Below, piece after piece: positions 2,867 through 39,598 of a DNA stretch of 64,000 nucleotides. Both the position numbers and the translations under genes were made by a program. Source of the DNA: a virus (taxonomy: Duplodnaviria; Caudoviricetes); the IMG/VR virus record IMGVR_UViG_3300033121_001585, positions 6,081-70,080 of that record; one strand, written 5' to 3'. The first letter of the stretch is position 1, and each line of letters opens with the position of its first letter. The notes under the pieces were generated by a model. The model was not told the origin of the DNA. It did no database searches and worked only from the letters and a program-made list of their open reading frames with translations.

Positions 2867-3981
2867 TATGATATCGCTTTCTTAATCTTTTCTCCGACTT
2901 GCTCGTAAGAAAATTCAAATATTTTGCTTAGAGAAGCTGAGAGTTTAGATTCTTTTAATTGGGGTTGAGAGTATGCTTCTCGCATACACTTTCTAAGATG
3001 TGGTATAGATATAGATGCCCATAGCTCGTTACCATAATACAAAGAACACGGATGGTTTTCCATCCCTTGTACTGGAACTAAATCGTAGTTCACTAGCCAA
3101 CCTTCTTTGTTTGTTAAATATTCCGTAAAACTACTCCAACCTGTAACGATAGGCGTTTTGCCGAAACCAAGAGCGTCTATAGCTGGTATACACCAACCCT
3201 CTCCATATGATGTTGATACGAAATTATCGCAACTCATATGAATACTGTCAATATCATTGTCTGACAAATAAGAATTTGTTAATATTATTTCTTTTTTGCT
3301 TCTAGCAATTCTTAATTCTTTTTTAACATAATTGCAATAATCGTACATCTGACTAGGAGTAGATTTTTGACCAGAAACTTTTAATACTAAATTAACAGGT
3401 TCATTTAAATCAAACTCCAAATGAAAAGCTTTGATTAATGCTGACAAGTTTTTTCTATTATTTGTTTCGCATATAGTATAGAATAAAAAATCTCCATGTT
3501 TATCATCGTCTATCTGTTTGTATATATTATGATTCTTTAGATACTTATCTAGATTAACAGGTATTGGTACAATTTTGATTGGTACTTTTACTTGACTATT
3601 GATAGCTACCGTTTTGACAAATTCAGAAGGAACCCATACCTCATCCATCAAATTCAATCTTTGTGCCCAATTAGATTTATTAAAATCAGAAGTCTCATAC
3701 AATAAATAACATATATTTTTCTTAAATTTTGAATTATAAATAATATGGTCTGGTAGAGTAAAATAAACAATATTATCACAACCTCTAATATCTTTATTTT
3801 CTAATTCTAATATATCTTTTGGAAGATTTTCATTATGTAAATTATACTTAATCGGTCTAATAACCAAATCAAGTTTAGCTTGTTGAAAAGCTCTAATAAA
3901 ATCTAACGCAGCTTTAGACCAACCGCTTCCATCCCTATAAGGAGCTATAAATAGAGTTCTCATCGCACCTTCTTTGCTCAA
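2866..3981 (-). CDS. GT4 (GT-B) glycosyltransferase
   Basis: DEVWVPSEF, RKNLSALIKAF, FVSTSYGEGWCIPAIDALGFG. Confidence 0.9.
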   Translation of the reverse strand: MSKEGAMRTLFIAPYRDGSGWSKAALDFIRAFQQAKLDLVIRPIKYNLHNENLPKDILELENKDIRGCDNIVYFTLPDHIIYNSKFKKNICYLLYETSDFNKSNWAQRLNLMDEVWVPSEFVKTVAINSQVKVPIKIVPIPVNLDKYLKNHNIYKQIDDDKHGDFLFYTICETNNRKNLSALIKAFHLEFDLNEPVNLVLKVSGQKSTPSQMYDYCNYVKKELRIARSKKEIILTNSYLSDNDIDSIHMSCDNFVSTSYGEGWCIPAIDALGFGKTPIVTGWSSFTEYLTNKEGWLVNYDLVPVQGMENHPCSLYYGNELWASISIPHLRKCMREAYSQPQLKESKLSASLSKIFEFSYEQVGEKIKKAIS

Positions 3982-6580
3982 AAATATTTCTTTGATTACA
4001 GAGATTTGTAAAATGATTCATGCATTGTTCTCTGTCAAGTTTAGAAAATGCTAAACCTAAATTTAAATCTCTTAGTGTTCCTAAAGCTAAGTGAGTATTA
4101 ACTAAATCAGGTCTACCAGCAACATGCTCAAATCCCCATCTAACAAACTGTGGATTAGAAAGTCCTTTTGGAATAATTTTTTGCGGGGTGAAATAATTAG
4201 CAGGGAAGGCCCATTTGTTGACGGAAGTATCTATTGAGTCAAAACACTCTTCCCAGACTTTAAAATTATGTTCCCAGGTGTATCTATCCTCGACTGCTTT
4301 TCTTGCTTTTGCTCCAATTCTTGCTCTCATTGAAAATGGCATTTGTGCGAACTTGATAAGTTTCTTTATAAAGTCGTCGTTATCTGGATAAGCTCTATAA
4401 CTCATAGTGCCTTGGTCCCTGAAAAAAGTTTTTACTTCTACAGGAAAACCATGTAGGTTTCTTACAACCTCAGACATTGCACTATAATCTACCGCGAATA
4501 CCGGCACACCGCAAGCAGCAGCTTCTACCATAGGTATTCCAAAACCTTCATTGGTAGCGTATTGTACGTAACAATCAAATATAGACATAACAGTAGATAA
4601 CACTTTATGCGGAATACCGTGTTTAATGTTAGGTAATATCGCAGTATTGTTTCCGCAATACTTACAAATAGCTAATCCGTCCTGGAAAAGAGATGGGAAA
4701 ATTTCTCTACATGATAAGCAATAGTATGTCATCATTGTTCTATGAGAAACGCCATGCTCTTTAATTAAACAAGGTATATCCCAACCGACATCAGGGTATG
4801 CTGTATGTAAATACAAATAAGACCTAGATGCAACATTTTCTGGGGCAACTTCAAGAAATTTAGCAAAAGACTGAATCAAATCTGGATACAATTTTCGTAT
4901 CTGATTTCTCATAACCGTGCCGATTATAAACATTTCTGGATTTAATCCAATTTTCTGCTTTGCTTCATTGCTATTAGTAAATTTAAAATTGTCTAGATTT
5001 ACTCCAGGAGAAGCTGTTTTAAAAAGATTAATTTTTTGATTAGCTTCTTCTCTCAATACATTAAATCCCCAATCAGTATAAGGTAATACTTTGTCGGCAT
5101 TACAAAATGTCGCAATCCATTCTTCTTTCTGTGGTGCTGAATCAACTGGTGGAGATATCACCCAATTAAAATATGGTCTAGCCGGAGAACGACTTTCAAA
5201 TTCACAATTATGAATAGTAAAATATGAAGTAAAACTTTTATCTTCTTCTACTTCAAAATTAAATACATCTATCTCTTTGACATTACTAATATCTACATCT
5301 GTTATTGTTAAGTATGCATATTTTTCATCTATTCTTTTATGTTTGAATTCTTCTGAAAAATCACCGTTTAATATTTTTCCATAATTCTTAATATTATCCT
5401 TAGAAATGAAACTAAAGCAATATTTATAAAAAGTTTTTCCATTTAAACTATTTTTAGCATAACATACAGATGGTAATATGTTAATATTAACGCACATCTG
5501 AAAAATCTGCATTGCTAATTTTTTACTGGAAGTACATGAACTAGCAGCTATATATAACCCATCTAAATTTAAATGACCGTCTCCTCTTAAGTATCCTCTT
5601 AAAAATTCTTTTTCTTCTATCTCTGTAAATTTTGTTAAGTATTTAGTTTTAGCTAATCCTGGACATAATCCTCTTATCATTTTAGCAAAATCGCTATTAA
5701 ATACTCTTACTGTTAAACAATTTTTAATTTTGTCTATTGTTAGTGTTGGAGTTAACTTAAATAATTTTTCGCATATTTCTTTAATGTCTTCATATATATA
5801 AACTTCATCAATACATAAAGTGAACTGAACACCTTTGAGTTTATCATAAATCTTTAAATCTTCATACATCATACAGCCTTCAGCAGTATAATATCCTAAT
5901 AATCTAGCTAAATCTCCTGTAATTGTTTTATTACATTTATGTTTTGGAAAACACACTATATCTCCAACATTTACTTTTTCTGCATTAATCCAATTCAGTT
6001 TACTTTTTGCAAAGTTTGGTAAGTTTTTAGTTTTTCTTTTTATTGCTAAAATAGGATGTTCTGGAGTTAAACTTAAACCAAATGGCATAAAAGAAGCTTT
6101 TATCTTATAAATTCTTCCAGAATATTTTCTAGTCAAAATATTTTTAATTTTCTGATAATTGCCATTATGAGTTAATAATTCATCTTTTATATCTATTTCT
6201 TTAACAGATTTGATATTATTTTTTACAAACAATAAATCATCTGGATTAGCTAGACAATTCCATTCATCCCTTATATCTAAAACAATATCAGGTTTGAATT
6301 GTAAACACACTTCATCAAACTTGAATTCGCCCCAAGCAAATGTAGGTTTACTATTATAAATCTTCATTGCTTCTTCATCGTTATCTTTGGGTTTAACAGT
6401 AAAATGCTTCCATGGTAACGATGGAATATCTGGATGAGTACCATCACTAAAAGCTGCTAGCTCAGCTATTTCATATTTATTTGAGGCTTGAAGCCTACTG
6501 AGTAATTCAAAACCGTAGTTTGAAAAACCAGTAGACAACAAGCTGCTTTCATTACAAAATAAGATTTTTTTCTTTTTCAT
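3935..6580 (-). CDS. GT4 glycosyltransferase containing an intein
   Basis: QIRKLYPDLI and YATNEGFGIPMVEAAACGVPV; internal intein; two CxxC pairs in the GT region. Confidence 0.9.
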   Translation of the reverse strand: MKKKKILFCNESSLLSTGFSNYGFELLSRLQASNKYEIAELAAFSDGTHPDIPSLPWKHFTVKPKDNDEEAMKIYNSKPTFAWGEFKFDEVCLQFKPDIVLDIRDEWNCLANPDDLLFVKNNIKSVKEIDIKDELLTHNGNYQKIKNILTRKYSGRIYKIKASFMPFGLSLTPEHPILAIKRKTKNLPNFAKSKLNWINAEKVNVGDIVCFPKHKCNKTITGDLARLLGYYTAEGCMMYEDLKIYDKLKGVQFTLCIDEVYIYEDIKEICEKLFKLTPTLTIDKIKNCLTVRVFNSDFAKMIRGLCPGLAKTKYLTKFTEIEEKEFLRGYLRGDGHLNLDGLYIAASSCTSSKKLAMQIFQMCVNINILPSVCYAKNSLNGKTFYKYCFSFISKDNIKNYGKILNGDFSEEFKHKRIDEKYAYLTITDVDISNVKEIDVFNFEVEEDKSFTSYFTIHNCEFESRSPARPYFNWVISPPVDSAPQKEEWIATFCNADKVLPYTDWGFNVLREEANQKINLFKTASPGVNLDNFKFTNSNEAKQKIGLNPEMFIIGTVMRNQIRKLYPDLIQSFAKFLEVAPENVASRSYLYLHTAYPDVGWDIPCLIKEHGVSHRTMMTYYCLSCREIFPSLFQDGLAICKYCGNNTAILPNIKHGIPHKVLSTVMSIFDCYVQYATNEGFGIPMVEAAACGVPVFAVDYSAMSEVVRNLHGFPVEVKTFFRDQGTMSYRAYPDNDDFIKKLIKFAQMPFSMRARIGAKARKAVEDRYTWEHNFKVWEECFDSIDTSVNKWAFPANYFTPQKIIPKGLSNPQFVRWGFEHVAGRPDLVNTHLALGTLRDLNLGLAFSKLDREQCMNHFTNLCNQRNIFEQRRCDENSIYSSL
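5207..6256 (-). mobile_element. Intein with LAGLIDADG homing endonuclease (350 aa) in the glycosyltransferase
   Basis: Junctions DEWN|CLANPDD and FTIHN|CEFES; LTPEHPIL block B; LLGYYTAEG and FLRGYLRGDG; VFNFEVEEDKSF block F. Confidence 0.9.
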
Positions 6581-7008
6581 TAGAATGGTGCGTCATCATC
6601 AGGTTTGGTGTTTGTAGAACCATTGTCTTCAGGATTATCATTAGGTGTTTCGTCGCCTTCAGATGAATCTTTCTTACCAACAAAGTAAAACTTGTCTACT
6701 CTAAACTTAATTCTTGAGCGTTTACTACCAGTGCCCTTGTCTTCCCAGGTTTCTTGCTTAACAGAACATTCTACTAAAATAGGAGAACCTTTTCTGAAAA
6801 ACTTACTAATTTGTTCGCCACCAGAATCCCAAGCTTCCATATCTAAGAAAGAAGTTTCTTTTCCTTTTTCTCCATTCTGTTTCTTAAAAAATCTCGAAAC
6901 AGCAATAGTAAAAGATGCAACCTTAGAACTTCCGACTTCTTTTAGTTCAACGTCACGAACTAAATTTCCCATAAAAATACATCTGTTCATAAAAATCTCC
7001 AAAAACAA
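6580..7008 (-). CDS. ssb: Single-stranded DNA-binding protein
   Basis: MGNLVRDVEL, ASFTIAVSR, QETWEDK; acidic tail DDDAPF. Confidence 0.95.
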   Translation of the reverse strand: MFLEIFMNRCIFMGNLVRDVELKEVGSSKVASFTIAVSRFFKKQNGEKGKETSFLDMEAWDSGGEQISKFFRKGSPILVECSVKQETWEDKGTGSKRSRIKFRVDKFYFVGKKDSSEGDETPNDNPEDNGSTNTKPDDDAPF

Positions 7009-7014
7009 TTGTGA

Positions 7015-7647
7015 CTAAATTTGAAATACTTTCTTCACTATCAAAGAACCTTTTTTCTTATCCTTTTCCCCCTGAATCAAAACAGTATTGCCTTGAGCCA
7101 ACAATCCTCCATACTCCTCGTAGACTTCTGAGAAAACGCAAACGTCCTGCATTGAGCAAGTATCATCGGATATGGTTAGGAAAGCCATAACCTTACCGGC
7201 GTTTTTCCCTTTCTTTATTGTAAACTCTCGTATAGCCTGAATTTCAACAGCGAAAACTAAAAATCCTGACACCTTTCCTGCTAAAAATTCTTTACATTTT
7301 ATGTTTGCGTTAGAAATATCGCAGCTATCAATTTTCGAATAAGTTATTGGAACACCTAATAATTTTTCTTCTGTCCAAGCTATCCAATTAGGCGAATCTT
7401 TAGATTCTGTTGTCGGTTTTTCTAAAATTTGCAATTCACTCTTTACTATCTGGACTCTTTTTACATCATGGCAACCACCTAATTCTTTCTTAGGTTTAGC
7501 CATAGCTCTTAAAGCGTCAATCAAACAGTGATAATTGTTTTTTCTCTCCAGAATCCACTTCTTTTCTCCTTCTGTTAGAGTTGTCCAAACTTTGAACTCC
7601 GCTAGCATTTCTGTTCGACTCATATTTTCCATATTGTATTGCACCAA
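7015..7647 (-). CDS. dnaE: DnaE C-terminal region (OB-fold), in the +1 frame relative to 7517..9553
   Basis: EEKLLGVPIT, TIKKGKNAGKVMAFLTISDDT, VFSEVYEEY match the DnaE OB domain; 131 nt overlap with the upstream dnaE ORF. Confidence 0.85.
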   Translation of the reverse strand: MVQYNMENMSRTEMLAEFKVWTTLTEGEKKWILERKNNYHCLIDALRAMAKPKKELGGCHDVKRVQIVKSELQILEKPTTESKDSPNWIAWTEEKLLGVPITYSKIDSCDISNANIKCKEFLAGKVSGFLVFAVEIQAIREFTIKKGKNAGKVMAFLTISDDTCSMQDVCVFSEVYEEYGGLLAQGNTVLIQGEKDKKKGSLIVKKVFQI

Positions 7648-9553
7648 CAGATATTAGATTTGTTATAGCTGGAACCGAAATTTTATCTGATGCTACTAAA
7701 ACAAAATCATACCAAGAAAAATGACTAAAAGGTTTTTTCAAATATTCTTCTGCTTGTTTTATTGCTACTCTTATTTTATCAACTTGGCTTTCCCCTATAC
7801 CTTTAATGTCAGATAAGCCGAATCTTATTTTTTCTCCATCCATATAGAAATGTTTTTTTAAGTCTTGTAACTTTGGAGTAAGAACTTCTATATCTAATAA
7901 TTTGCATTCATCTACTAATTCTCTAATTTCCTCTAACGGATGTTGTTTTTCTGAAGAAAATCTTAACCATGAAGTAAAAAATCGTAGCGGAAAGTGAGCT
8001 TTAGCATAAGCTGTCCAGTAACCCATTACTCCATATGAAAAAGCGTGAGAATTACATGTTAATATTCCATCATTCGCAACGAAAGTATGATTAGGAGCGT
8101 CCATAGTTACATCATATGTATCGTCTACCCCAATAGAAACAATTGAAATTATTTTTTCTTTTATTACCGGATATCCTTTTTCGCCAACTTTAGTTCTTCC
8201 TAACTTATAGTCTTCTTTTTTGTGACACGAAACACATAATTTAATCAAATTTTCTAATTTATTATTTTCTCTGTTTTTATCTTTGTGGTGCACTTCTAAT
8301 CTACAATTAGTTTTTCCGCATATTCCACATTTATTTTCTAATAGTTTAATATTAGTTTCAAATTCTGTATAAGCTCCGTTTGTATATCCTGGATTATCAA
8401 CACCTGTCATAAATCCAGAATTTTTACCATCATGATTTCCTTTGTTTTGTCTTAAATCTTCAATTGTTAATTTGCTAAATTTATTAATTGATGCAAAATC
8501 TGACGCTTCATATTCACCACAGATTAATAAATTGTCTCCAACTTTTAAGTCTTTAGTTTCTATTGTTGTATCATTAAAAGGAAATTTATGATTTGATGTT
8601 ACATCTATATATTTTCCGCTTTCTGTTGTTATTCTAAATAGTTCTTGTTTTCCAGCATATTTGATATCAATAATAATATTAGGATGTATTCTTTTATCAT
8701 TAAATAATGATAATCCTGTGCCGTAGTTTTTAATCAATTTCCATTTTTTATATAAAGATAAATGTTTTGTTTGTTTAGCATATTCGATATTGTTTCTAAT
8801 CCTATACATTTCAGCAACATTTAATATACAAGGATTTTTACCATTAAACATTCTTTTAATTATAGTTTTTCCGCTCACACACTTATTAAACGAGTACCTT
8901 TGCGACTTCTCAATCATGTCGAATATAATCTCAGCTTCTTGCTCTGTTACTACTCCTAGTTTTTTAGCTCCTTCAATAAACATTTTTTTGCATTTTGCCA
9001 TTTCTTCAGGCAATTTCTTTCCAATAGCTTTTCTTAACATATCAGCTTCTTGCAAGTTGAAACCGGCTATTAATTCTGAAAGTTTCATAGCTTGTTCTTG
9101 ATATATCATAACATTGTATGTTTTTTCAAGAGCAGGAATCATACTTGGATGAAATATTTCTGAAACTTCTTCTTTATTTTTTCTAGCACAATAATGTTCT
9201 GTCGTACTAATACCTTCTTCATCTAGACACTCAAGACAACCAGGACGTAGAATAGCTCCTAAAGCTCCAATATGTTCTATTGATGTAGGTCTTAATCTTT
9301 TAGTCCATTGTTTACCTAGTTGGCTTTCTAATTGGAAAACTCCCTTTGTACAACCCTTAGCCAACATTTTCCATACTTCAGGACAATTTTTGTTTATTTT
9401 TTCAAATTTTATATCTATTCCATAACGAGGTAGAATATCTCCATTTTCATAGTCTTCTATTTTTTTACCATGTTTTTGTAAAACTTTGTGATTGATTGGT
9501 ATAGAACAACCGCAATCAAATAAAACTTCGTTTTTTTTAATTATAAAATTCAT
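7517..9553 (-). CDS. dnaE: DNA polymerase III alpha, second half (finger/HhH regions) with an intein
   Basis: TKGVFQLES, ILRPG, VMIYQEQAM, ADMLRKAIGKK, YSFNK|SHAFSYG, RFGLSDIKGIG. Confidence 0.92.
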   Translation of the reverse strand: MNFIIKKNEVLFDCGCSIPINHKVLQKHGKKIEDYENGDILPRYGIDIKFEKINKNCPEVWKMLAKGCTKGVFQLESQLGKQWTKRLRPTSIEHIGALGAILRPGCLECLDEEGISTTEHYCARKNKEEVSEIFHPSMIPALEKTYNVMIYQEQAMKLSELIAGFNLQEADMLRKAIGKKLPEEMAKCKKMFIEGAKKLGVVTEQEAEIIFDMIEKSQRYSFNKCVSGKTIIKRMFNGKNPCILNVAEMYRIRNNIEYAKQTKHLSLYKKWKLIKNYGTGLSLFNDKRIHPNIIIDIKYAGKQELFRITTESGKYIDVTSNHKFPFNDTTIETKDLKVGDNLLICGEYEASDFASINKFSKLTIEDLRQNKGNHDGKNSGFMTGVDNPGYTNGAYTEFETNIKLLENKCGICGKTNCRLEVHHKDKNRENNKLENLIKLCVSCHKKEDYKLGRTKVGEKGYPVIKEKIISIVSIGVDDTYDVTMDAPNHTFVANDGILTCNSHAFSYGVMGYWTAYAKAHFPLRFFTSWLRFSSEKQHPLEEIRELVDECKLLDIEVLTPKLQDLKKHFYMDGEKIRFGLSDIKGIGESQVDKIRVAIKQAEEYLKKPFSHFSWYDFVLVASDKISVPAITNLISVGAIQYGKYESNRNASGVQSLDNSNRRRKEVDSGEKKQLSLFD
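8051..8881 (-). mobile_element. Intein with HNH endonuclease (277 aa) in DnaE
   Basis: Junctions YSFNK|CVSGKT and GILTCN|SHAF; VTSNHKF block B; CGICG...LEVHHKDKNRENNKLENLIKLCVSCH HNH; TYDVTMDAPNHTFVANDG block F. Confidence 0.9.
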
Positions 9554-18696: not shown

Positions 18697-18931
18697 CTAT
18701 TTCCTCATATGTCATAGTAAGATTTTCTTCATTTAATAACTCTATAAATCTATCTATAGCCTTTTTAATATCTTTATATTCAAAATATTCACAATCTTTA
18801 TCTTCGCTGGTCACTTCAAAATAATCGTTTTTAGAATTCCATCTTAAAGCAACAGTATTTCCAGCAATAGATTCTTGTGGTCTTTTCTTGAAAAAATCAT
18901 ACATGTACTGCTTAACATCTCCGTCAATCAT
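18677..18931 (-). CDS. Hypothetical protein
   Basis: 84 aa coupled ORF. Confidence 0.6.
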   Translation of the reverse strand: MIDGDVKQYMYDFFKKRPQESIAGNTVALRWNSKNDYFEVTSEDKDCEYFEYKDIKKAIDRFIELLNEENLTMTYEEIDGIGTS

Positions 18932-20951
18932 CTAATTCACCATCTAGTAATAACTTTTGTACACCCATTAATTTATCCAACACAGCAATTCCTAAGATAT
19001 CAAACTTTGGCAAACCTATAGCTTCTAAGTCACCCATTTCCCAACCAGCAATAACGCTATCACCGTGCTTATCGTATACCATTGGACAAATTTTAGATAA
19101 TACATCAGAAGCTATTATAATTCCAGAAGGATGTTTACCTTGACTTTTCTTGGTTCCTTCAAGTCTTATCGCTTGTTCAAACAGTTTTGAATAAGGACCA
19201 TCTAGAGTGCCGTCATCTTTATTAATAAAGCACCATTGCTTTAATTTAGCTGGCGTGTTTTCTAGTGCCCATCTTATAATTGAAGATTCTCCAAATTCCT
19301 CTCTCATTTCTTGTAAATCATCAGCAATTTTGCTTTCGTCAACTATATTCTTACTAATCAAATTCATTTCTTCGAATGAGCATGCGTCGTGAATTCTGAA
19401 TACTTCCTTTAACGCTCCTCTACCTTGTATTCTATTATATGTTAACATTTCAGCAAATTTATCAGCCCCATATTTGTTCTTAACATATAGTTTAACGTCG
19501 TCTCTTCTAGTTATAGGAAAATCGCAATCAATATCAGGTAAAGATATTCTTCCTGGAGAATTTCTGCCCGCATTATAAAATCTTTCAAAGTACAAGTCAT
19601 TCTCTATCGGGTCAACATTTTCGCTCGTTATACCTATTAACATTGAAACTAGAGAACCAGCACCAGAACCTCTTCCACAACCTAATAATAATCCTAAATC
19701 CTCCCTAGCATGTCTGCAATAATCTTGCACGATTAAAAAATAAGAAGCTAAACCTGCTTCTTTAAAAACGCCTAATTCTTTCTTAATTCTTTCAGAATAT
19801 TCAGTTAATCTCTCTTTTGGAACATTAGGTAATATTTTTTCTTTCCATCCTTTAATACATAACTCTCTTAAATACTCGTCTGGATTAGCATTATTAGGAC
19901 ATTGAAATTTTGGTAATATAGGAGGTCCAAAAACATCATACTTCTCTATCATTTCAGCAATTTTTTCTGTATTTATTATTTCAGATTCTTCATAAGTCGA
20001 TGTTACTTCTTCTATTGAAGGTATGCCATAATTGCTTGACTTAAAAAAGAAAGATAGGTCATAATTCTCTTTTTTGCTTAGTTCAGTATTTACGCTTTTT
20101 AAAGTAGTTTCCATCTTACTGCATAATAATAATCTTTGGTCCCTTGAATCAATTTTATCTGGATAATAACTTGATGCTACAGCAACACATTCACAATCTG
20201 TTTTCTTTGCTATATATCTTAGAGCTTTAGAAACAATAACGGATGCTGGAACCGTCAGACTATTAATCAATTCGACTTCTAAAAAGAAATTCTTTTTCCC
20301 AAAAATCTCTTGGTATTTTCCAATCAAAGAAATAAGTTTCGACTTCCAATTTTCATCGACAAAAGATTTTGCGATTTCGTAATTCTCAGAGGAATAAGCA
20401 AGGAAGGGATTAGTAAAGATTGCGTCGGCCAAATCCGAACCGATGTGTCCGTTCATGGCGATGAGGCTTTCTTGCTTAGTAAATTCTGAAAATTGTTCTA
20501 ACTGAAGCCTTGGTTTTTTAAAAAAGTTTTTTGGTTCGTTGGATAAAGAAACAACCTGAATAAGCTTTTTCCAACCGTCATGATTTTTAGCTAATACATA
20601 TAAACCTTTTTCACCACAATTTGTTTCATCCTTAATCTCTGGAGATTTATCGCATAGATAGAATTGACAACCAATAATAGGTTTTATTGGTGAAGCTCTA
20701 AATTCTTTGCAGCCGTTTTTATGTCTGCATTCTCCTTTGCCACCATTCTTATGCTCTCCTTTTTGCTCTCCGCATACGCACACATCTTTCATAGCTTTCA
20801 TGAAAGAAATTGAGCCTGATATACCATCGTCAGTTAAAGCACAAGTATTGTAATTTAACTGTTTACATCTCTTAGCTATTTGTACAGGTTTACTTAAACC
20901 TTTTAATAAGGAATAATGACTATGTACTTTTAATGGTGTAAAATTTAACAT
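18924..20951 (-). CDS. dnaE: DNA polymerase III alpha, N-terminal half (PHP and palm)
   Basis: LKVHSHYSLLKG, ALTDDG, GRGSGAGSLV, FERF, PDIDCDF, KHPSGII, KFDILG near the C-terminus. Confidence 0.95.
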   Translation of the reverse strand: MLNFTPLKVHSHYSLLKGLSKPVQIAKRCKQLNYNTCALTDDGISGSISFMKAMKDVCVCGEQKGEHKNGGKGECRHKNGCKEFRASPIKPIIGCQFYLCDKSPEIKDETNCGEKGLYVLAKNHDGWKKLIQVVSLSNEPKNFFKKPRLQLEQFSEFTKQESLIAMNGHIGSDLADAIFTNPFLAYSSENYEIAKSFVDENWKSKLISLIGKYQEIFGKKNFFLEVELINSLTVPASVIVSKALRYIAKKTDCECVAVASSYYPDKIDSRDQRLLLCSKMETTLKSVNTELSKKENYDLSFFFKSSNYGIPSIEEVTSTYEESEIINTEKIAEMIEKYDVFGPPILPKFQCPNNANPDEYLRELCIKGWKEKILPNVPKERLTEYSERIKKELGVFKEAGLASYFLIVQDYCRHAREDLGLLLGCGRGSGAGSLVSMLIGITSENVDPIENDLYFERFYNAGRNSPGRISLPDIDCDFPITRRDDVKLYVKNKYGADKFAEMLTYNRIQGRGALKEVFRIHDACSFEEMNLISKNIVDESKIADDLQEMREEFGESSIIRWALENTPAKLKQWCFINKDDGTLDGPYSKLFEQAIRLEGTKKSQGKHPSGIIIASDVLSKICPMVYDKHGDSVIAGWEMGDLEAIGLPKFDILGIAVLDKLMGVQKLLLDGELDD

Positions 20952-35063: not shown

Positions 35064-36057
35064 CTGCTATTCCTGTCTGATATTCTGTTACTCTAGTTTC
35101 AAAAAAGTTTTTTTGTTTTGACAAATCAATAATTTCGCTGAGCCAAGGGAACGGCGTTTGTATTTTACCATAAAGTTCTGGAAAATGCAAGCTCGACAAT
35201 CTACGATTTGCAATATATTTCATGTAATCAACAAACATATTAGCATTTAAACCTAATATACCTCTTGGTAATACATCCTTAGCATAATCAATTTCTAAAT
35301 TAACAGCTTTTTGAATATGTAATTTAGTTTCTGACTCAAAATCTGGAGAAAATATTTCTGGGTTTTCTGACCTGATTTTATTTATCAGTTTAGTGCCAAA
35401 TTCTATATGGAGGCTTTCGTCTCTTAACGTGTATTGAATTTGTTCTGAAATTCCAGGAAATTTATTTTGTCTGCCAAACGAAAGCAACATAGCAAAACCG
35501 GAATAGAAAAATATTCCTTCGCATACTATGTAGTATGTAATAATATTGCGTAGTAACTCTTGTTTTCCTTGAAGAGTTTTTATATCAAAGTCTTTTCTGT
35601 GAATATCTCTGGTAATTTCCATTAAGAAATCGTCTTTAGCTTTAATAGCTGGTATAGTATTATAAGCTTCGTATACTTCTTTTATATCTAAACCTAAAGA
35701 ATCGCAACAGTATACAATAGTTAGATTATGCAAAGATTCTTCAAATTGTTGTCTAGAAATATAAGTACGACATTCCGCGTCTCCTATATATTTCAAAATT
35801 ACAAGCAATAAATTGTTAGAAACTAAACTTTCTGAACCAGCAAAAAATCCTAAACAACGCTTGACTACCAAACGCTCATCATCAGATATATCGTTTGATT
35901 TCCATTGAGTAATATCTTTTTGCATGCTTACTTCTGTAGGCATCCAATTGTTAGAACAACCTTTTAAGTACAAATCCCACGCCCACTTATTTTTATGTGG
36001 AAGAATTTGATTTACTATGGCTACATCTTCGCTTATAATTTTAAGTGCATGACTCAC
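35053..36057 (-). CDS. nrdB: Class Ia ribonucleotide reductase beta subunit
   Basis: WMPTEV, FEESLH, EGIFFYSGF, RDESLH, NFFETRVTEY. Confidence 0.95.
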   Translation of the reverse strand: MSHALKIISEDVAIVNQILPHKNKWAWDLYLKGCSNNWMPTEVSMQKDITQWKSNDISDDERLVVKRCLGFFAGSESLVSNNLLLVILKYIGDAECRTYISRQQFEESLHNLTIVYCCDSLGLDIKEVYEAYNTIPAIKAKDDFLMEITRDIHRKDFDIKTLQGKQELLRNIITYYIVCEGIFFYSGFAMLLSFGRQNKFPGISEQIQYTLRDESLHIEFGTKLINKIRSENPEIFSPDFESETKLHIQKAVNLEIDYAKDVLPRGILGLNANMFVDYMKYIANRRLSSLHFPELYGKIQTPFPWLSEIIDLSKQKNFFETRVTEYQTGIADDF

Positions 36058-39000
36058 AAATTTCTCCTCGTTTCATAGCCTCTATAGAACAAGAGCTTTT
36101 TTCTACTTTAGAAGCAGCTTTTGCTCTTACATAGTAAGTTGTTTTTAAGTCTTTTTCCCAACAATATTGGTATATATCAGCTAGGTATTTCATACTTGGT
36201 TTACCGCAATAGATATTAAAGCTTTGTCCCATATCTATATATTTTTGTCTAGCTGAAGCAGCATCTACTAAATAACGATAATCTATATCAAAAGCACCTT
36301 TGTATTCCTCTTTAATTTCATCAGGTATGTTTAGCTGTAACACATCCCCGTCAGCCTTTTTAATAGCATCAACTAGTTCATTGCACCACAAACCTAAACT
36401 TTTCATCCTCTTAACAAAGTGTTCATTGATTATAGTGAATTCTCCACTTAATGTAGAATAGACGTATATAATTCCATAATCAGGTTCTATAGATTGACTG
36501 CAACCGACTATTGATGAAATAGTAGCTGTTGGTGCAATAGCTAACAAGCTTGAATTTCTAATACCGTAACGTCCTAAATCTTGACATAAAGGTTCCCAAT
36601 CGAGTTCATTATATGATGGAACTCTAATTTTTTTTCCTCTGAATTTTTCTAAATCTTTATATAATTGATGAGGTAATCCGTTTGAATCCCATTCAGAATT
36701 TTTGTAAGATTTAAATTTACCTTTTTCTTTTGCTAATTTAATGGAAGTTTTAATTGCGTGATAGTAAATAAACTCTTGCACACCACCAGCTATATCTACA
36801 GCACTTTGAGATTCGTAAGGTATTTCTAGAATATGAAGCAAATCAGAAAATCCCATTATTCCTAAACCTATAGGGCGATGCCTTAAATTTGACTTTTGAG
36901 CTTCTTTAATTGGATAATGATTTTTATCAATAACATCATCTAAAGAATTAATTGCTGTTTCAACAGTTTTTGCAAGTTTAGTATAATCAATCAACCAAAC
37001 CTTTTTATCTTCATTAAAATATACATGTTCTACTAGATTAATACTAGCAAGATTACAATTATGGACAACGATTCCGTTAGCAACAAAATGATGTTTTTTC
37101 TCTAAACATAAATCATAAACTTTTTTAACGCCTACCAATTCAATTGATTGTACTTTAGAACAATTTCTTGCACCTATATTAGATTCTATATTTTTATTTA
37201 GAAAATCTCGCAATTTATTACTTTTATTTTCACACAATAAGAAATTAATGTTATCGTAAAAAGATTTACATTCTTTATAACCATGTATCCTTAAAGAACC
37301 TTGATATCTCTTTCTAGGATAAGAATCTACTATAATTGACCTGATACCAAATTCATTTAATATTTTTTGAGTGCTTAGTAGTAATTGTTTACTAGCAGAA
37401 GTTAGACAAACGCTTATTCTACCTTTAGTATCAATTAACGCACATCCATCAGCAGAAAATAAACCACTTAAAAAACTAGCCTTTTTATTCAAATCTTTAT
37501 TTCTAATACATTCATATATATCTTTATTTTTAGCTAAAGCTTGCTTAAAACCAAACTTTTTTTCAAGAAAATCTTTCCATAATTGGTTACCACTAGCCCA
37601 ACAAAATACTCCGTTTTTATCAGGTTTAGCTTCAAATTGAGGAAACCTTCCATTACCTGAATCGCTAATATTAGCGATAAACCATTCTTTGATTTTATTC
37701 ATTACAAAATCTTTTGCTTTAAATTCAGTAGGGCCAAAACAAACTCCGTAATTGCTATAAGCTTGCCATCCGTCTCCTAAAATCCAACCAGCAGTTAAAT
37801 AATCATCGTCTTGAACTATTTTTTCTTTAGATAGAGAATCGTTGCAAGATATAGCAATAAAATCTCCAATTTTTATATTTTTGAGTTGTTTCCATTGATA
37901 ACCATCTGGAATACTATAATCATTTTTCTTGTATCTTAACTTAGAATTGTCTTTATATTTAGTTAAAATAGGATGATTATCGGTTGCTTCTAATTCATAA
38001 CCATTATTTAATGTAATTTTATAAACATATTTTTCTCCATTATAAATCAATTTAGCTTTTTCAAAACTTTTATTTTGAATAAAATCTGAATCAGACGTAT
38101 ATTGAGTATATACATATTTATCATTACATTCTTCTATAGGAAGATAACCATTATCTGTTAATACTAATGAGCCTTCAGCTAAACAAACTGCTGTTTCTCC
38201 TAATACTTTCTTTTGTCCCATCTCATATAAAGTTTTTTTGGTATGTCTTAATATTTCCGTGCAAAGGTTAGATGAGTGAACAATTCCTTCATTCTTATTA
38301 GTGTATAGTATGTTGCTTATATCCTTAAAACAAATCCAAGGATGACCTGTGCTTAATGCTGAGATAAGAATCTTTTTGAATAAAGATTTTGCTTCAACTT
38401 TCTTGAAAGTTTTTATTTTACCAGCTTCAGCAAGAGAGACATATTTATTATATTTCTTTTCGAAGTCTTTACCGTAAGAGTCATGAAGGTCTGATACTTC
38501 GTCTGGTGAGAATAGATACCAGTATGAATCTTTTTCGTAAAAAACTTTTTTGAAAAATAGGTCTGAACACCATAAAGCTGTATTCATATCGTGGCAACGT
38601 CTTCGCTCGTCACCTGTATTCTTTTTCAAGTCGCAAAAATCTTCTACTTGTAAATGCCAGTCAGGTAGATAAGAAACTCCAGCCCCTTTTCTTTTTCCGC
38701 CTTGGTCGAATGCTACTAATGTATCATTAAGGATTTTCATAAATGGAATTGGGCCGGAAGACTTTCCGTTTGTTTTTTTGATTCTAGCCCCTTCGCCTCT
38801 TACATATCCCCAATCAATGGCTACTCCACCAGCAAACTTGGATAATCTTGCTTGGTCATGAATTGTTCCCATAATTCCGTCTTCGCTATCATCCATAGTG
38901 CTTAGATAACAACTTGATAATTGAGGAAAGTTAGTTCCGCTATTAAATAGAGTTGGAGTCGATGGCATATATAAAAATTGAGACATTGAATGATAGTATT

Positions 39001-39598
39001 CTAAAGCTTTTTGCTCCTTATTCTCATCATCATAAGCTAAACCCATCGCTACTCTCATAAAGAAAGCTTGCGGTGTTTCCATCTTTCTTCCTTCGATGTG
39101 AATTAAATATCTATCATAAATTGTTTGTATGCCAAGATATTTAAATTTTAAATCTCTTTCTATTACTAAAGCTTCTGATAACATCTCTAAATCAAAATTT
39201 AATAATTCTGGATTGATTCTTTCAGCATCGACCATTTCGTACAAATTATCAATGAACGCTTGTTTGTACTGGTCTTCGAATAAATCATGCTCTACGCCAG
39301 TATTAAAAACTTCTTTGTATAAATTATTCAATAGCAATCTAGCTGCTACATAACTATAATTTGGTTCTTTTTCAATTTTAGCTCTGGCGGAAAGGATTAA
39401 AGACTTATCAATTTCAATGGTGGGAACACCGTCATACAACTGAAAGCTTGCGTCAAGAACGATTTCGCTGGCAGACACATTTTCTAACCCTTCGCATGCC
39501 CTTTCTGCTGATTTATTTATTTTATCCAAAATAAGAGGTTCTGTATTTCCGTGGCGTTTCTTGACGCTAACATTTGGCATTAGTGTTCCTTCATTCAT
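36041..39598 (-). CDS. nrdA: Class Ia ribonucleotide reductase alpha subunit with ATP cone and intein
   Basis: VKKRHG ATP cone, PSTPTLFN, LSSCY, SNLCTEI, CNLASINL, APTATIS, KTTYY, terminal CESCT. Confidence 0.96.
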   Translation of the reverse strand: MNEGTLMPNVSVKKRHGNTEPLILDKINKSAERACEGLENVSASEIVLDASFQLYDGVPTIEIDKSLILSARAKIEKEPNYSYVAARLLLNNLYKEVFNTGVEHDLFEDQYKQAFIDNLYEMVDAERINPELLNFDLEMLSEALVIERDLKFKYLGIQTIYDRYLIHIEGRKMETPQAFFMRVAMGLAYDDENKEQKALEYYHSMSQFLYMPSTPTLFNSGTNFPQLSSCYLSTMDDSEDGIMGTIHDQARLSKFAGGVAIDWGYVRGEGARIKKTNGKSSGPIPFMKILNDTLVAFDQGGKRKGAGVSYLPDWHLQVEDFCDLKKNTGDERRRCHDMNTALWCSDLFFKKVFYEKDSYWYLFSPDEVSDLHDSYGKDFEKKYNKYVSLAEAGKIKTFKKVEAKSLFKKILISALSTGHPWICFKDISNILYTNKNEGIVHSSNLCTEILRHTKKTLYEMGQKKVLGETAVCLAEGSLVLTDNGYLPIEECNDKYVYTQYTSDSDFIQNKSFEKAKLIYNGEKYVYKITLNNGYELEATDNHPILTKYKDNSKLRYKKNDYSIPDGYQWKQLKNIKIGDFIAISCNDSLSKEKIVQDDDYLTAGWILGDGWQAYSNYGVCFGPTEFKAKDFVMNKIKEWFIANISDSGNGRFPQFEAKPDKNGVFCWASGNQLWKDFLEKKFGFKQALAKNKDIYECIRNKDLNKKASFLSGLFSADGCALIDTKGRISVCLTSASKQLLLSTQKILNEFGIRSIIVDSYPRKRYQGSLRIHGYKECKSFYDNINFLLCENKSNKLRDFLNKNIESNIGARNCSKVQSIELVGVKKVYDLCLEKKHHFVANGIVVHNCNLASINLVEHVYFNEDKKVWLIDYTKLAKTVETAINSLDDVIDKNHYPIKEAQKSNLRHRPIGLGIMGFSDLLHILEIPYESQSAVDIAGGVQEFIYYHAIKTSIKLAKEKGKFKSYKNSEWDSNGLPHQLYKDLEKFRGKKIRVPSYNELDWEPLCQDLGRYGIRNSSLLAIAPTATISSIVGCSQSIEPDYGIIYVYSTLSGEFTIINEHFVKRMKSLGLWCNELVDAIKKADGDVLQLNIPDEIKEEYKGAFDIDYRYLVDAASARQKYIDMGQSFNIYCGKPSMKYLADIYQYCWEKDLKTTYYVRAKAASKVEKSSCSIEAMKRGEICESCT
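37058..38185 (-). mobile_element. LAGLIDADG intein (376 aa) in NrdA
   Basis: Junctions ETAV|CLAEGS and IVVHN|CNLAS; ATDNHPI; AGWILGDG and FLSGLFSADG. Confidence 0.93.

What the first reader, a model, noticed from the sequence alone, without database searches (positions are those of the whole stretch)
7517..7647. dnaE frame switch: the short frame ends in the clamp motif QLSLFD, next to an A_AAA_AAC slippery site
Seen: the polymerase ORF stops as ...EKKQLSLFD* (7537-7517), while the DnaE-like continuation (SRTEML...OB fold) is in the +1 frame. In that frame, codons AGA AAA AAC (7545-7537) contain the heptamer A_AAA_AAC, and a -1 slip there gives K-Q-L-S-L-F-D-stop. Established: QL[S/D]LF is the bacterial beta-clamp-binding consensus, and dnaX uses a -1 shift on an A-rich heptamer to make tau and gamma. 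Inference: two polymerase isoforms, one with the OB domain and one truncated with an exposed host-clamp ligand. The separate join near 7630 (CAATATGG, possibly missing AT from CAA TAT ATG GAA) may be an assembly error, a real mutation or an independent start. No canonical stimulator (SD spacing, strong hairpin) was found.
Basis: partly seen in the sequence, partly recalled or inferred. Interest (0 to 1): 0.8.

Follow-up and report, generated by a model that had tools for sequence, protein, structure and literature searches.

The report
Overlapping split-polymerase genes; clamp-motif tail
A phage DNA polymerase is encoded in separate pieces, and one piece runs 113 bases into the next gene in another reading frame, ending in a perfect bacterial sliding-clamp docking motif; no ribosomal frameshift is needed and it is not an assembly error.

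Summary
The sequence facts are right. ORF A (7517-9553, minus strand; DnaE fingers + HhH, with an HNH intein) ends ...EKKQLSLFD*. The OB-fold continuation (ORF B, start ATG 7632 or 7623, stop 7015) lies in the +1 frame, and A_AAA_AAC sits at 7543-7537.

The frameshift reading is not supported. ORF A is open all the way to QLSLFD, so ordinary translation makes that C-terminus. The heptamer is commonplace (61 A_AAA_AAN per about 20,000 codons), has no usable stimulator and is absent from relatives. The 'join near 7630' is an old, conserved gene split: all close relatives have a separate OB gene starting MSRT.., while more distant ones have the two parts fused. Independent assemblies show no indels.

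The new result is that the 113-nt overlap looks truly dual-coding. Three or four lineages with saturated synonymous sites keep the alternate frame open for 31-45 codons (stop-avoidance P = 0.0001-0.008 each). Other relatives reach a stop within about 0-17 codons, with one exception. A 96%-identical strain has only changes that are synonymous in the tail frame.

QL[SD]LF occurs nowhere else in about 650,000 six-frame residues searched. It sits 33 residues after the HhH domain; E. coli QADMF sits 31 after. Clamp binding itself is inferred, not tested.

The parts
7517..9553 (-). ORF A: middle DnaE subunit (fingers + HhH, 678 aa with intein), ending in the alternate-frame tail ...EKKQLSLFD*
   Evidence: single open frame; Pfam DNA_pol3_finger 6e-41 and HHH_6 8e-8. 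The intein-less allele in strain L057 is 403 aa with an identical tail.
8051..8881 (-). HNH intein (277 aa, residues 225-501) inserted at FNK|C...N|SHA in the fingers domain
   Evidence: Intein_splicing, HNH; boundaries taken from the intein-less allele in L057, which reads ..SFNK|SHAFSYG..
7634..7891 (-). HhH (beta-binding) domain of ORF A, residues 555-640
   Evidence: PF14579 HHH_6.
7520..7632 (-). Dual-coding overlap: the last 38 codons of ORF A (a polar linker plus QLSLFD) lie over the first 38 codons of ORF B
   Evidence: Stop-avoidance P = 0.0026. Strain comparison: 2 changes, both synonymous in A. Homologous open alternate frame in L009, L010 and L054.
7520..7537 (-). QLSLFD, a consensus beta-clamp-binding motif at the C-terminus of ORF A (stop TGA 7517-7519)
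   Evidence: Consensus QL[S/D]LF per PMC3919608.
7015..7632 (-). ORF B: separate OB-fold DnaE subunit (start ATG 7632 or 7623, about 202-205 aa)
   Evidence: thirteen stand-alone homologues of 196-211 aa that start MSRT.ML. Syntenic in L003-L012.
7537..7543 (-). A_AAA_AAC heptamer in the ORF B frame: present, but judged not functional
   Evidence: Absent from L009, L010 and L054.
18924..20951 (-). N-terminal DnaE subunit (PHP + palm), a separate gene about 9.4 kb upstream
   Evidence: PF02811, PF07733.
6580..7008 (-). SSB gene directly downstream (context; conserved synteny)

Best explanation
This phage encodes its DnaE-type polymerase as three genes: PHP/palm (18924-20951), fingers/HhH (ORF A) and OB fold (ORF B). 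ORF A and ORF B are two independently translated, overlapping genes. ORF B starts at its own ATG (7632 or 7623, MSRT...), as in all close relatives. ORF A is read by ordinary translation through that start, in the frame one base behind ORF B's, for 38 more codons. That stretch forms a polar, probably disordered linker ending in QLSLFD*. The overlap arose because the stop codon that ends ORF A next to the ORF B start in the 'short' relatives is missing here (that TAA is made by ACT AAA in the ORF B frame). The open alternate frame has since been kept by selection. Shown: gene structure, conservation of the split, absence of indels, stop-avoidance in the tail frame, and rarity and position of the motif. 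Inferred (about 60%): the tail is a tether that docks the middle polymerase subunit on the host beta sliding clamp. That would re-create across two genes the canonical DnaE order HhH -> clamp motif -> OB. No ribosomal frameshift is involved.
For: 1. ORF A is one open frame to 7517.
2. The split is conserved. Stand-alone OB proteins starting MSRT.ML were found in 12 relatives. In L003-L012 the upstream gene stops between 4 nt before and 11 nt after that ATG, and the frame offset differs in L006. More distant relatives have the two parts fused.
3. It is not an error. Contigs from four independent studies show 0 indels over 7200-8000; one strain differs by 32 substitutions.
4. Strain L057 (63 differences over 1477 nt) has only two changes in the overlap. 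Both are synonymous in frame A and one is non-synonymous in B. There are no changes at all in 7529-7687. Synonymous changes in the ORF B frame number 1 in 38 codons against a background of 51 in 441, P = 0.066.
5. The -1 frame of window genes carries 13% stops per codon, and P(open run >= 37 codons) = 0.005. None of the 8 places where a T-ending synonymous ORF B codon would create a stop in frame A uses one (P = 0.0026).
6. The same holds in L009 (P = 0.008), L010 (P = 1.3e-4) and L054 (P = 1.6e-3), although third codon positions are saturated between them.
7. Over the homologous 36 codons, 27 of 28 distinct fused or short-form relatives have 1-7 stops, with the first at codon 0-17. The exception, fused L064, has none. 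Tail lineages have no stop before codon 30.
8. QL[SD]LF occurs only here in 128,000 + 522,608 six-frame residues.
9. The motif starts 33 residues after GAI of the HhH domain. E. coli QADMF starts 31 residues after GAF. The DnaE domain order HhH -> clamp motif -> OB is described in PMC3919608.
10. No dnaN was found in this record (47% complete), or in five related phage records of which three are at least 95% complete. No clamp or clamp-loader domain appeared in the 27 window ORFs scanned against Pfam.
Against: The host is unknown. The other tail-bearing lineages do not end in a canonical motif (L010 ...GILQEV*; L054 has QTELDF 14 residues from its end). Sister lineage L009 has E instead of the key Q (ELSLFD). 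Fused relatives and one complete related phage carry no recognisable clamp motif on replication proteins, so clamp use is not a general trait of this polymerase family. LSLFD lies over NYHCL in frame B, so part of its conservation between the window and L009 could be hitch-hiking. The strain-level test is weak (P = 0.066). There are no expression or proteome data. ORF B has only weak SD-like sequence upstream, though about half of the window's genes lack one too.
Confidence: 0.72

Rival explanations
1. The tail is translated and kept by selection, but QLSLFD is not a clamp ligand. The tail would serve another role, for example docking another replisome partner, holding the A and B subunits together, or setting the A:B ratio by letting ribosomes run over the ORF B start.
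For: Tails are kept open in L010 and L054 without a canonical motif. Fused relatives have no clamp motif at all. Moving the ORF A stop 104 nt beyond the ORF B ATG abolishes the stop/start coupling seen in relatives.
Against: An exact consensus pentapeptide at a C-terminus, at the canonical position after HhH, has a chance expectation of about 1.7e-6 per position, and it was seen nowhere else in about 650,000 residues. Both strain substitutions inside it are synonymous in frame A.
Confidence: 0.22
2. One reading: a programmed -1 frameshift at A_AAA_AAC (7543-7537) moves ribosomes from the OB frame into the QLSLFD frame, giving tau/gamma-like isoforms, together with a second frame change near 7630.
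For: The heptamer exists in the ORF B frame. The 86 nt after it fold better than shuffled sequence (z = -3.3).
Against: ORF A already reads QLSLFD* without any slip. A slip from ORF B would give only a peptide of about 38 aa. The heptamer type occurs 61 times per 20,166 codons. AAGGAG lies 22 nt upstream and GGAG 2 nt upstream, neither at dnaX-like spacing. The first hairpin is AU-rich and starts at spacing 0-1, and the stronger one starts 33 nt downstream, beyond the ORF A stop. The heptamer is absent in L009, L010 and L054, which still have the tail. Frame A is kept open upstream of the heptamer too, which only read-through from ORF A explains. No Rfam frameshift element matches.
Confidence: 0.03
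3. A programmed +1 (or -2) frameshift near 7630 joins ORF A to ORF B to make a fused fingers-HhH-OB protein alongside the truncated one.
For: Fused single-ORF homologues exist in more distant phages, so a fused product would be functional.
Against: No shared slippery sequence occurs at the junction in the window, L003, L006, L007, L009, L010, L011 or L054. The frame offset is +1 in most but +2 in L006. ATG-MSRT is conserved, with the upstream stop beside it in most relatives, which is the signature of separate coupled genes.
Confidence: 0.04
4. Assembly or sequencing indel, or a recently broken pseudogene.
For: A homopolymer run (A6) and a frame change inside a conserved polymerase are typical signs of error.
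Against: An identical frame structure with no indels is seen in contigs from four independent studies, including a 96%-identical strain, and in L057-L059. The same split occurs in a whole clade. Both frames are conserved across the A6 run.
Confidence: 0.01

Closest known systems
Internal beta-clamp-binding motif of cellular DnaE/PolC (E. coli alpha 920-QADMF-924; PolC QLSLF)
   Same: It is a consensus pentapeptide placed just after the (HhH)2 domain and before the OB fold. Spacing from the GA[FI] of HhH is 33 residues here and 31 in E. coli.
   Different: Here it is the C-terminus of a separate polypeptide. It is encoded in the alternate reading frame of the first codons of the OB-fold gene, it is lineage-specific, and fused and short-form relatives lack it.
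dnaX tau/gamma programmed -1 frameshift
   Same: An A-rich heptamer, and the idea of long and short replisome proteins from one locus.
   Different: No slip is required, no stimulators are present, the heptamer is not conserved, and the two products come from two start codons rather than one.
Overlapping genes formed by stop-codon loss or overprinting in viruses (categories reviewed in PMC2268670 and PMC8227390)
   Same: Two same-strand genes in different frames share 113 nt. The newer frame encodes a polar, probably disordered peptide, and stops are avoided in the overprinted frame.
   Different: The overprinted piece is not a new protein. It is a C-terminal extension of the neighbouring subunit of the same enzyme, and it carries a known short linear motif.
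Split DnaE of cyanobacteria (split intein) and 'fractured' phage genes (PMC2677866)
   Same: A replicative C-family polymerase encoded in pieces, with inteins present in the gene.
   Different: No split intein lies at either break. The intein here is a contiguous HNH intein inside ORF A and is absent from a sister strain. The pieces must therefore assemble non-covalently.

Membership tests
dnaX-type programmed -1 ribosomal frameshift site | Slippery heptamer X_XXY_YYZ in the zero frame | tested here: met
   A_AAA_AAC at 7543-7537 in the ORF B frame. This is uninformative, because 61 A_AAA_AAN sites occur in 20,166 codons.
dnaX-type programmed -1 ribosomal frameshift site | Stimulators: an SD-like element about 10-14 nt upstream and/or a stable stem-loop about 5-9 nt downstream | tested here: not met
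   AAGGAG is 22 nt upstream and GGAG 2 nt upstream. The downstream hairpins are weak at spacing 0-1, or start 33 nt away. No Rfam frameshift family matches.
dnaX-type programmed -1 ribosomal frameshift site | The shift is needed to make the product, and the site is conserved in relatives | tested here: not met
   ORF A reads to QLSLFD* unshifted. The heptamer is absent in L009, L010 and L054.
Beta-clamp-binding motif proteins (QL[S/D]LF) | Match to the consensus, with Q1, L4 and F5 | tested here: met
   QLSLF at 7537-7523. Consensus and key positions per PMC3919608.
Beta-clamp-binding motif proteins (QL[S/D]LF) | Exposed, flexible context (terminus or loop) | tested here: inconclusive
   The motif is at the C-terminus, and 27 of the 33 preceding residues are polar or charged. 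No structure was predicted.
Beta-clamp-binding motif proteins (QL[S/D]LF) | Physical binding to the clamp pocket | not testable with these tools
The host and its clamp are unknown.
Beta-clamp-binding motif proteins (QL[S/D]LF) | Conservation among relatives | tested here: inconclusive
   Identical in strains L057-L059, with substitutions that are synonymous only in frame A. L009 has ELSLFD. L010 and L054 differ. Short-form and fused relatives lack it.
DnaE-type C-family DNA polymerase | PHP, palm, fingers, HhH and OB domains | tested here: met
   PF02811 + PF07733 (18924-20951), PF17657 + PF14579 (ORF A) and PF01336 (ORF B). The domains are spread over three genes.
Dual-coding (overlapping) genes | Both frames open and both under purifying selection | tested here: met
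   Frame B: conserved SR..ML.EF.AW..LT.KE..W across split and fused relatives. Frame A: stop-avoidance P = 0.0026, 0.008, 1.3e-4 and 1.6e-3 in four lineages with saturated third positions, with controls.
Dual-coding (overlapping) genes | Both products expressed | not tested
   No RNA, ribosome-profiling or proteome data were examined.

The most novel reading that the evidence does not exclude
After an ancestral frameshift split a phage DnaE between its HhH and OB domains, the upstream subunit kept reading into the alternate frame of the OB gene. This 31-45-codon overprinted tail has been kept by selection in several deep lineages as a carrier for short docking motifs. In the window's lineage it evolved de novo into a perfect host beta-clamp ligand, giving a polymerase family that otherwise lacks any clamp motif access to the host clamp.
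Probability: 0.45. Interest if true: 0.7.

Novelty: new variant of a known kind. Interest (0 to 1): 0.5.

Why it matters
It replaces an attractive but wrong recoding story with a testable one. A consensus clamp-binding motif appears to have been born in the alternate reading frame of a neighbouring gene, exactly where cellular DnaE carries its clamp motif.

If the tail binds the host clamp, this is a clean natural example of de novo origin of a short linear motif by overprinting. It would also show how a phage polymerase with no clamp gene of its own can acquire host-clamp processivity.

The work also documents a clade of 140-165-kb environmental phages whose C-family polymerase is assembled from two or three separately encoded chains. 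For annotation, gene callers truncate ORF B (162-174 aa instead of about 202) to avoid the overlap, so this arrangement is systematically mis-annotated.

Tried and rejected
- Complex prediction (tail of P0018 with the E. coli beta clamp) was closed, so no docking test was made.
- blastn of the locus against the phage collection gave no match.
- Single-protein search for related loci in viral contigs found nothing. An alignment query was needed.
- The metagenome scan with the split-clade alignment gave 41 loci. Almost all were fused forms, and there were no new tail-bearing lineages.
- Clamp-like motifs were sought in fused homologues and in one complete related phage, G002. The only canonical QL[SD]LF there was an internal, hydrophobic QLDLF at residue 24 of a 469-aa ORF. 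Nothing was found at a C-terminus of a replication protein.
- dnaN searches (PF00712, TIGR00663) in the own record and in five related phage records were all negative. The own record is only 47% complete, so absence there proves little.
- No motif is shared in register among the WIN, L010 and L054 tails. ILQEV and FLQVV resemble each other but are offset by 3 codons, so this was judged a by-product of SYK codons. L054 QTELDF resembles the E. coli alpha C-terminal QVELEF and is kept only as a lead.
- An SD-like AAGGAG followed 7 nt later by an in-frame GTG (7556-7554) could give a 13-aa peptide ending QLSLFD. This is pure speculation and was not pursued.
- The careful maximum-likelihood tree did not finish, so only the quick tree (SH-aLRT support) was used.
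- The strain-level test for suppressed synonymous change is only P = 0.066.

Full report
**What is there.** The window is part of a 70-kb IMG/VR virus record, 47% complete. Nearly all genes are on the minus strand.
- ORF A (9553->7517, 678 aa) matches DNA_pol3_finger (6e-41) and HHH_6. It contains an intein with an HNH nuclease, at residues 225-501, window 8881-8051.
- ORF A ends ...EKKQLSLFD followed by TGA at 7519-7517.
- ORF B lies in the +1 frame. It is open from 7647, has ATGs at 7632 and 7623, reads MENMSRTEML..., and carries an OB fold.
- The PHP/palm part of the polymerase is a separate gene at 18924-20951.
- The replication module also holds a DnaB-like helicase, a Toprim primase, a DnaQ-like exonuclease, UDG, SSB and a RecA-like protein. 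No clamp or clamp-loader domain appeared in the 27 ORFs scanned.
- The heptamer A_AAA_AAC is at 7543-7537 in the ORF B frame.

**The frame change near 7630 is an old gene split, not an error and not recoding.**
- A protein search found 12 stand-alone homologues of ORF B (174-211 aa as called by gene finders); most of those not truncated at the N-terminus start MSRT(K/R)ML.
- Their loci are syntenic: WavE-like gene, fingers/HhH gene, OB gene, SSB, glycosyltransferase.
- In L003, L006, L007 and L011 the upstream gene stops between 4 nt before and 11 nt after the OB gene's ATG. The frame offset is +1 in most and +2 in L006. A variable offset, a conserved ATG and an adjacent stop are the signature of two coupled genes, not of a frameshift site.
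- More distant relatives (35-49% identity, dozens of loci) have fingers-HhH-OB fused in one ORF of 526-588 aa. The split is therefore derived and defines a clade (quick tree, SH-aLRT 90).
- Contigs from four independent studies laid on 7200-8000 show no insertions or deletions. One carries a strain with 32 substitutions.
- Loci L057-L059 from other samples have the same frames.

**No frameshift is needed or indicated.**
- ORF A is continuous, so QLSLFD* is its ordinary C-terminus. A -1 slip from ORF B would make only a peptide of about 38 residues.
- In-frame A_AAA_AAN heptamers occur 61 times in 20,166 codons of the window.
- The nearest SD-like sequences are 22 nt and 2 nt upstream.
- The 86 nt downstream fold somewhat better than shuffles (z = -3.3). 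However, the first hairpin is AU-rich and starts at spacing 0-1, and the stronger one starts 33 nt away, beyond the ORF A stop.
- No Rfam frameshift element matches.
- The heptamer is missing in L009, L010 and L054, which nevertheless have long tails.

**The overlap looks truly dual-coding.** In the 'short' relatives, ORF A is stopped by a TAA formed by ACT AAA (Thr-Lys) in the OB frame. The window has ACA GAA there, and frame A runs on for 104 nt past the second ATG.

Long alternate-frame tails also exist in three other places:
- L009/L060, the closest relative at 68% identity: ...EELSLFDTCP*.
- L010: ...DRGILQEV*.
- L054, carried on 11 contigs: a 45-residue tail containing QTELDF.

The evidence that these tails are kept by selection:
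- In window genes the frame one base behind the coding frame has 13% stop codons, and an open run of at least 37 codons has probability 0.005.
- A stop arises in frame A whenever a T-ending ORF B codon precedes a codon starting AA, AG or GA. The window has 8 such opportunities and uses none. It uses TTC although 79% of Phe codons are TTT, and AAC although 78% of Asn codons are AAT (P = 0.0026).
- The same test gives 0.008 (L009), 1.3e-4 (L010) and 1.6e-3 (L054).
- Third codon positions at conserved residues are 39-53% identical in all pairs, whatever the protein identity. Synonymous sites are therefore saturated and these lineages are effectively independent trials.
- As a control for the local amino-acid content, 27 of 28 distinct fused or short-form relatives have 1-7 stops over the homologous 36 codons, the first at codon 0-17. 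Fused L064 is the one exception, with none. Tail lineages have no stop before codon 30.
- Frame B is clearly translated too. Its SR..ML.EF.AW..LT.KE..W pattern is conserved from split to fused forms.
- In the quick tree the short-stop forms are one clade (SH-aLRT 100), and the tail-bearing lineages branch outside it at the base of the split clade. This fits an ancestral tail that was lost once.

**Strain-level evidence.** Strain L057 lacks the intein and differs at 63 of 1477 sites without gaps.
- It has just two differences in the overlap: CTG>TTG and GAT>GAC in frame A. Both are synonymous there, and the second is Ile>Thr in frame B.
- No differences occur between 7529 and 7687.
- Changes synonymous in the ORF B frame number 1 per 38 codons in the overlap, against 51 per 441 outside (P = 0.066). 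This is suggestive only.

**The motif.**
- QL[SD]LF occurs once in 128,000 six-frame residues of the window. It occurs nowhere else in 522,608 six-frame residues of 47 related loci, apart from strain copies of this site. The composition-based expectation is 1.7e-6 per position.
- Published work gives QL[S/D]LF as the beta-clamp consensus, with positions 1, 4 and 5 the most important, and places the motif in DnaE directly after (HhH)2 and before the OB fold (PMC3919608; E. coli 920-QADMF-924, PMC3201878).
- In E. coli alpha, read here from the genome, QADMF begins 31 residues after GAF of the HhH domain. In ORF A, QLSLF begins 33 residues after GAI.
- The 33 linker residues are 27/33 polar or charged.
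- The motif lies over the part of ORF B that varies among relatives (after the conserved W). That is where the alternate frame is free to evolve.
- No dnaN is detectable in this record, or in five related phage records of which three are at least 95% complete. A clamp ligand would therefore have to address the host clamp.

**Caveats.**
- L009 has E in place of Q.
- L010 and L054 lack a canonical motif.
- Fused relatives and a complete related phage have no clamp motif on replication proteins.
- LSLFD overlies NYHCL in frame B, so the window-L009 identity there could be partly hitch-hiking.

**Verdict.** The frameshift mechanism is rejected (about 3%), and so is an assembly error (about 1%). 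The best account is two overlapping genes with a selection-maintained, overprinted C-terminal tail on the middle DnaE subunit (about 85% for the gene structure). In this lineage the tail probably acts as a host-clamp tether (about 60%, inferred).

It is a new variant of known things: split polymerases, overlapping genes and clamp motifs. It is of moderate interest, and directly testable with a peptide-binding assay and proteomics.

Noticed in passing
window 8051-8881 (-); L057:1797-3008: The 277-aa HNH intein in ORF A is polymorphic. Strain L057, 96% identical in the flanks, has an intein-less 403-aa gene reading ..SFNK|SHAFSYG.., while L058 carries the intein.
   Followed up: partly
window 3935-6580 (-); L057:3945-5540: The glycosyltransferase downstream of SSB is 881 aa here, with a LAGLIDADG_3 hit at residues 324-401, but only 531 aa in strain L057. 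A second intein therefore appears to be present or absent between strains.
   Followed up: no
window 7467-7505 (-): A hairpin of about 12 bp with an internal loop sits inside ORF B just after the ORF A stop, over the codons for AMAKPKKELGGCH. The 86-nt segment has z = -3.3 against shuffles. L009 has one mismatch in the inner stem. It may be chance complementarity of the P-K and L-G codons.
   Followed up: partly
window 7554-7571 (-): A strong SD-like AAGGAG is followed 7 nt later by GTG in frame A. This could in principle start a 13-residue peptide ending QLSLFD. It is probably a by-product of the TEGEKK codons.
   Followed up: no
L013-L053, L063-L100: In this whole phage group, even the 'fused' fingers-HhH-OB proteins start at the fingers domain. 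The PHP/palm half is always a separate gene, so a two-chain C-family polymerase is the norm and three chains is the derived state. Other split forms ending ..GATDCYD also exist (P0052, P0089, P0103).
   Followed up: partly
L054:4090-4180: The alternate-frame tail of the P0018 lineage contains DQTELDFLQ, which resembles the E. coli alpha C-terminal SEQVELEFD.
   Followed up: partly
window 36041-39598 (-): The ribonucleotide reductase large subunit carries a LAGLIDADG intein. That makes three intein-bearing genes in one 64-kb window.
   Followed up: no
all OB subunits and fused homologues: The extreme C-terminus ..VK.V.QI* is almost invariant across split and fused forms. It may be a conserved terminal contact, function unknown.
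   Followed up: no
window 7015-7647; P0004, P0005, P0014: Gene callers shorten ORF B to 162-186 aa, using internal ATG or TTG starts, to avoid the overlap. Database entries for this subunit are therefore N-terminally truncated in the tail-bearing lineages.
   Followed up: yes
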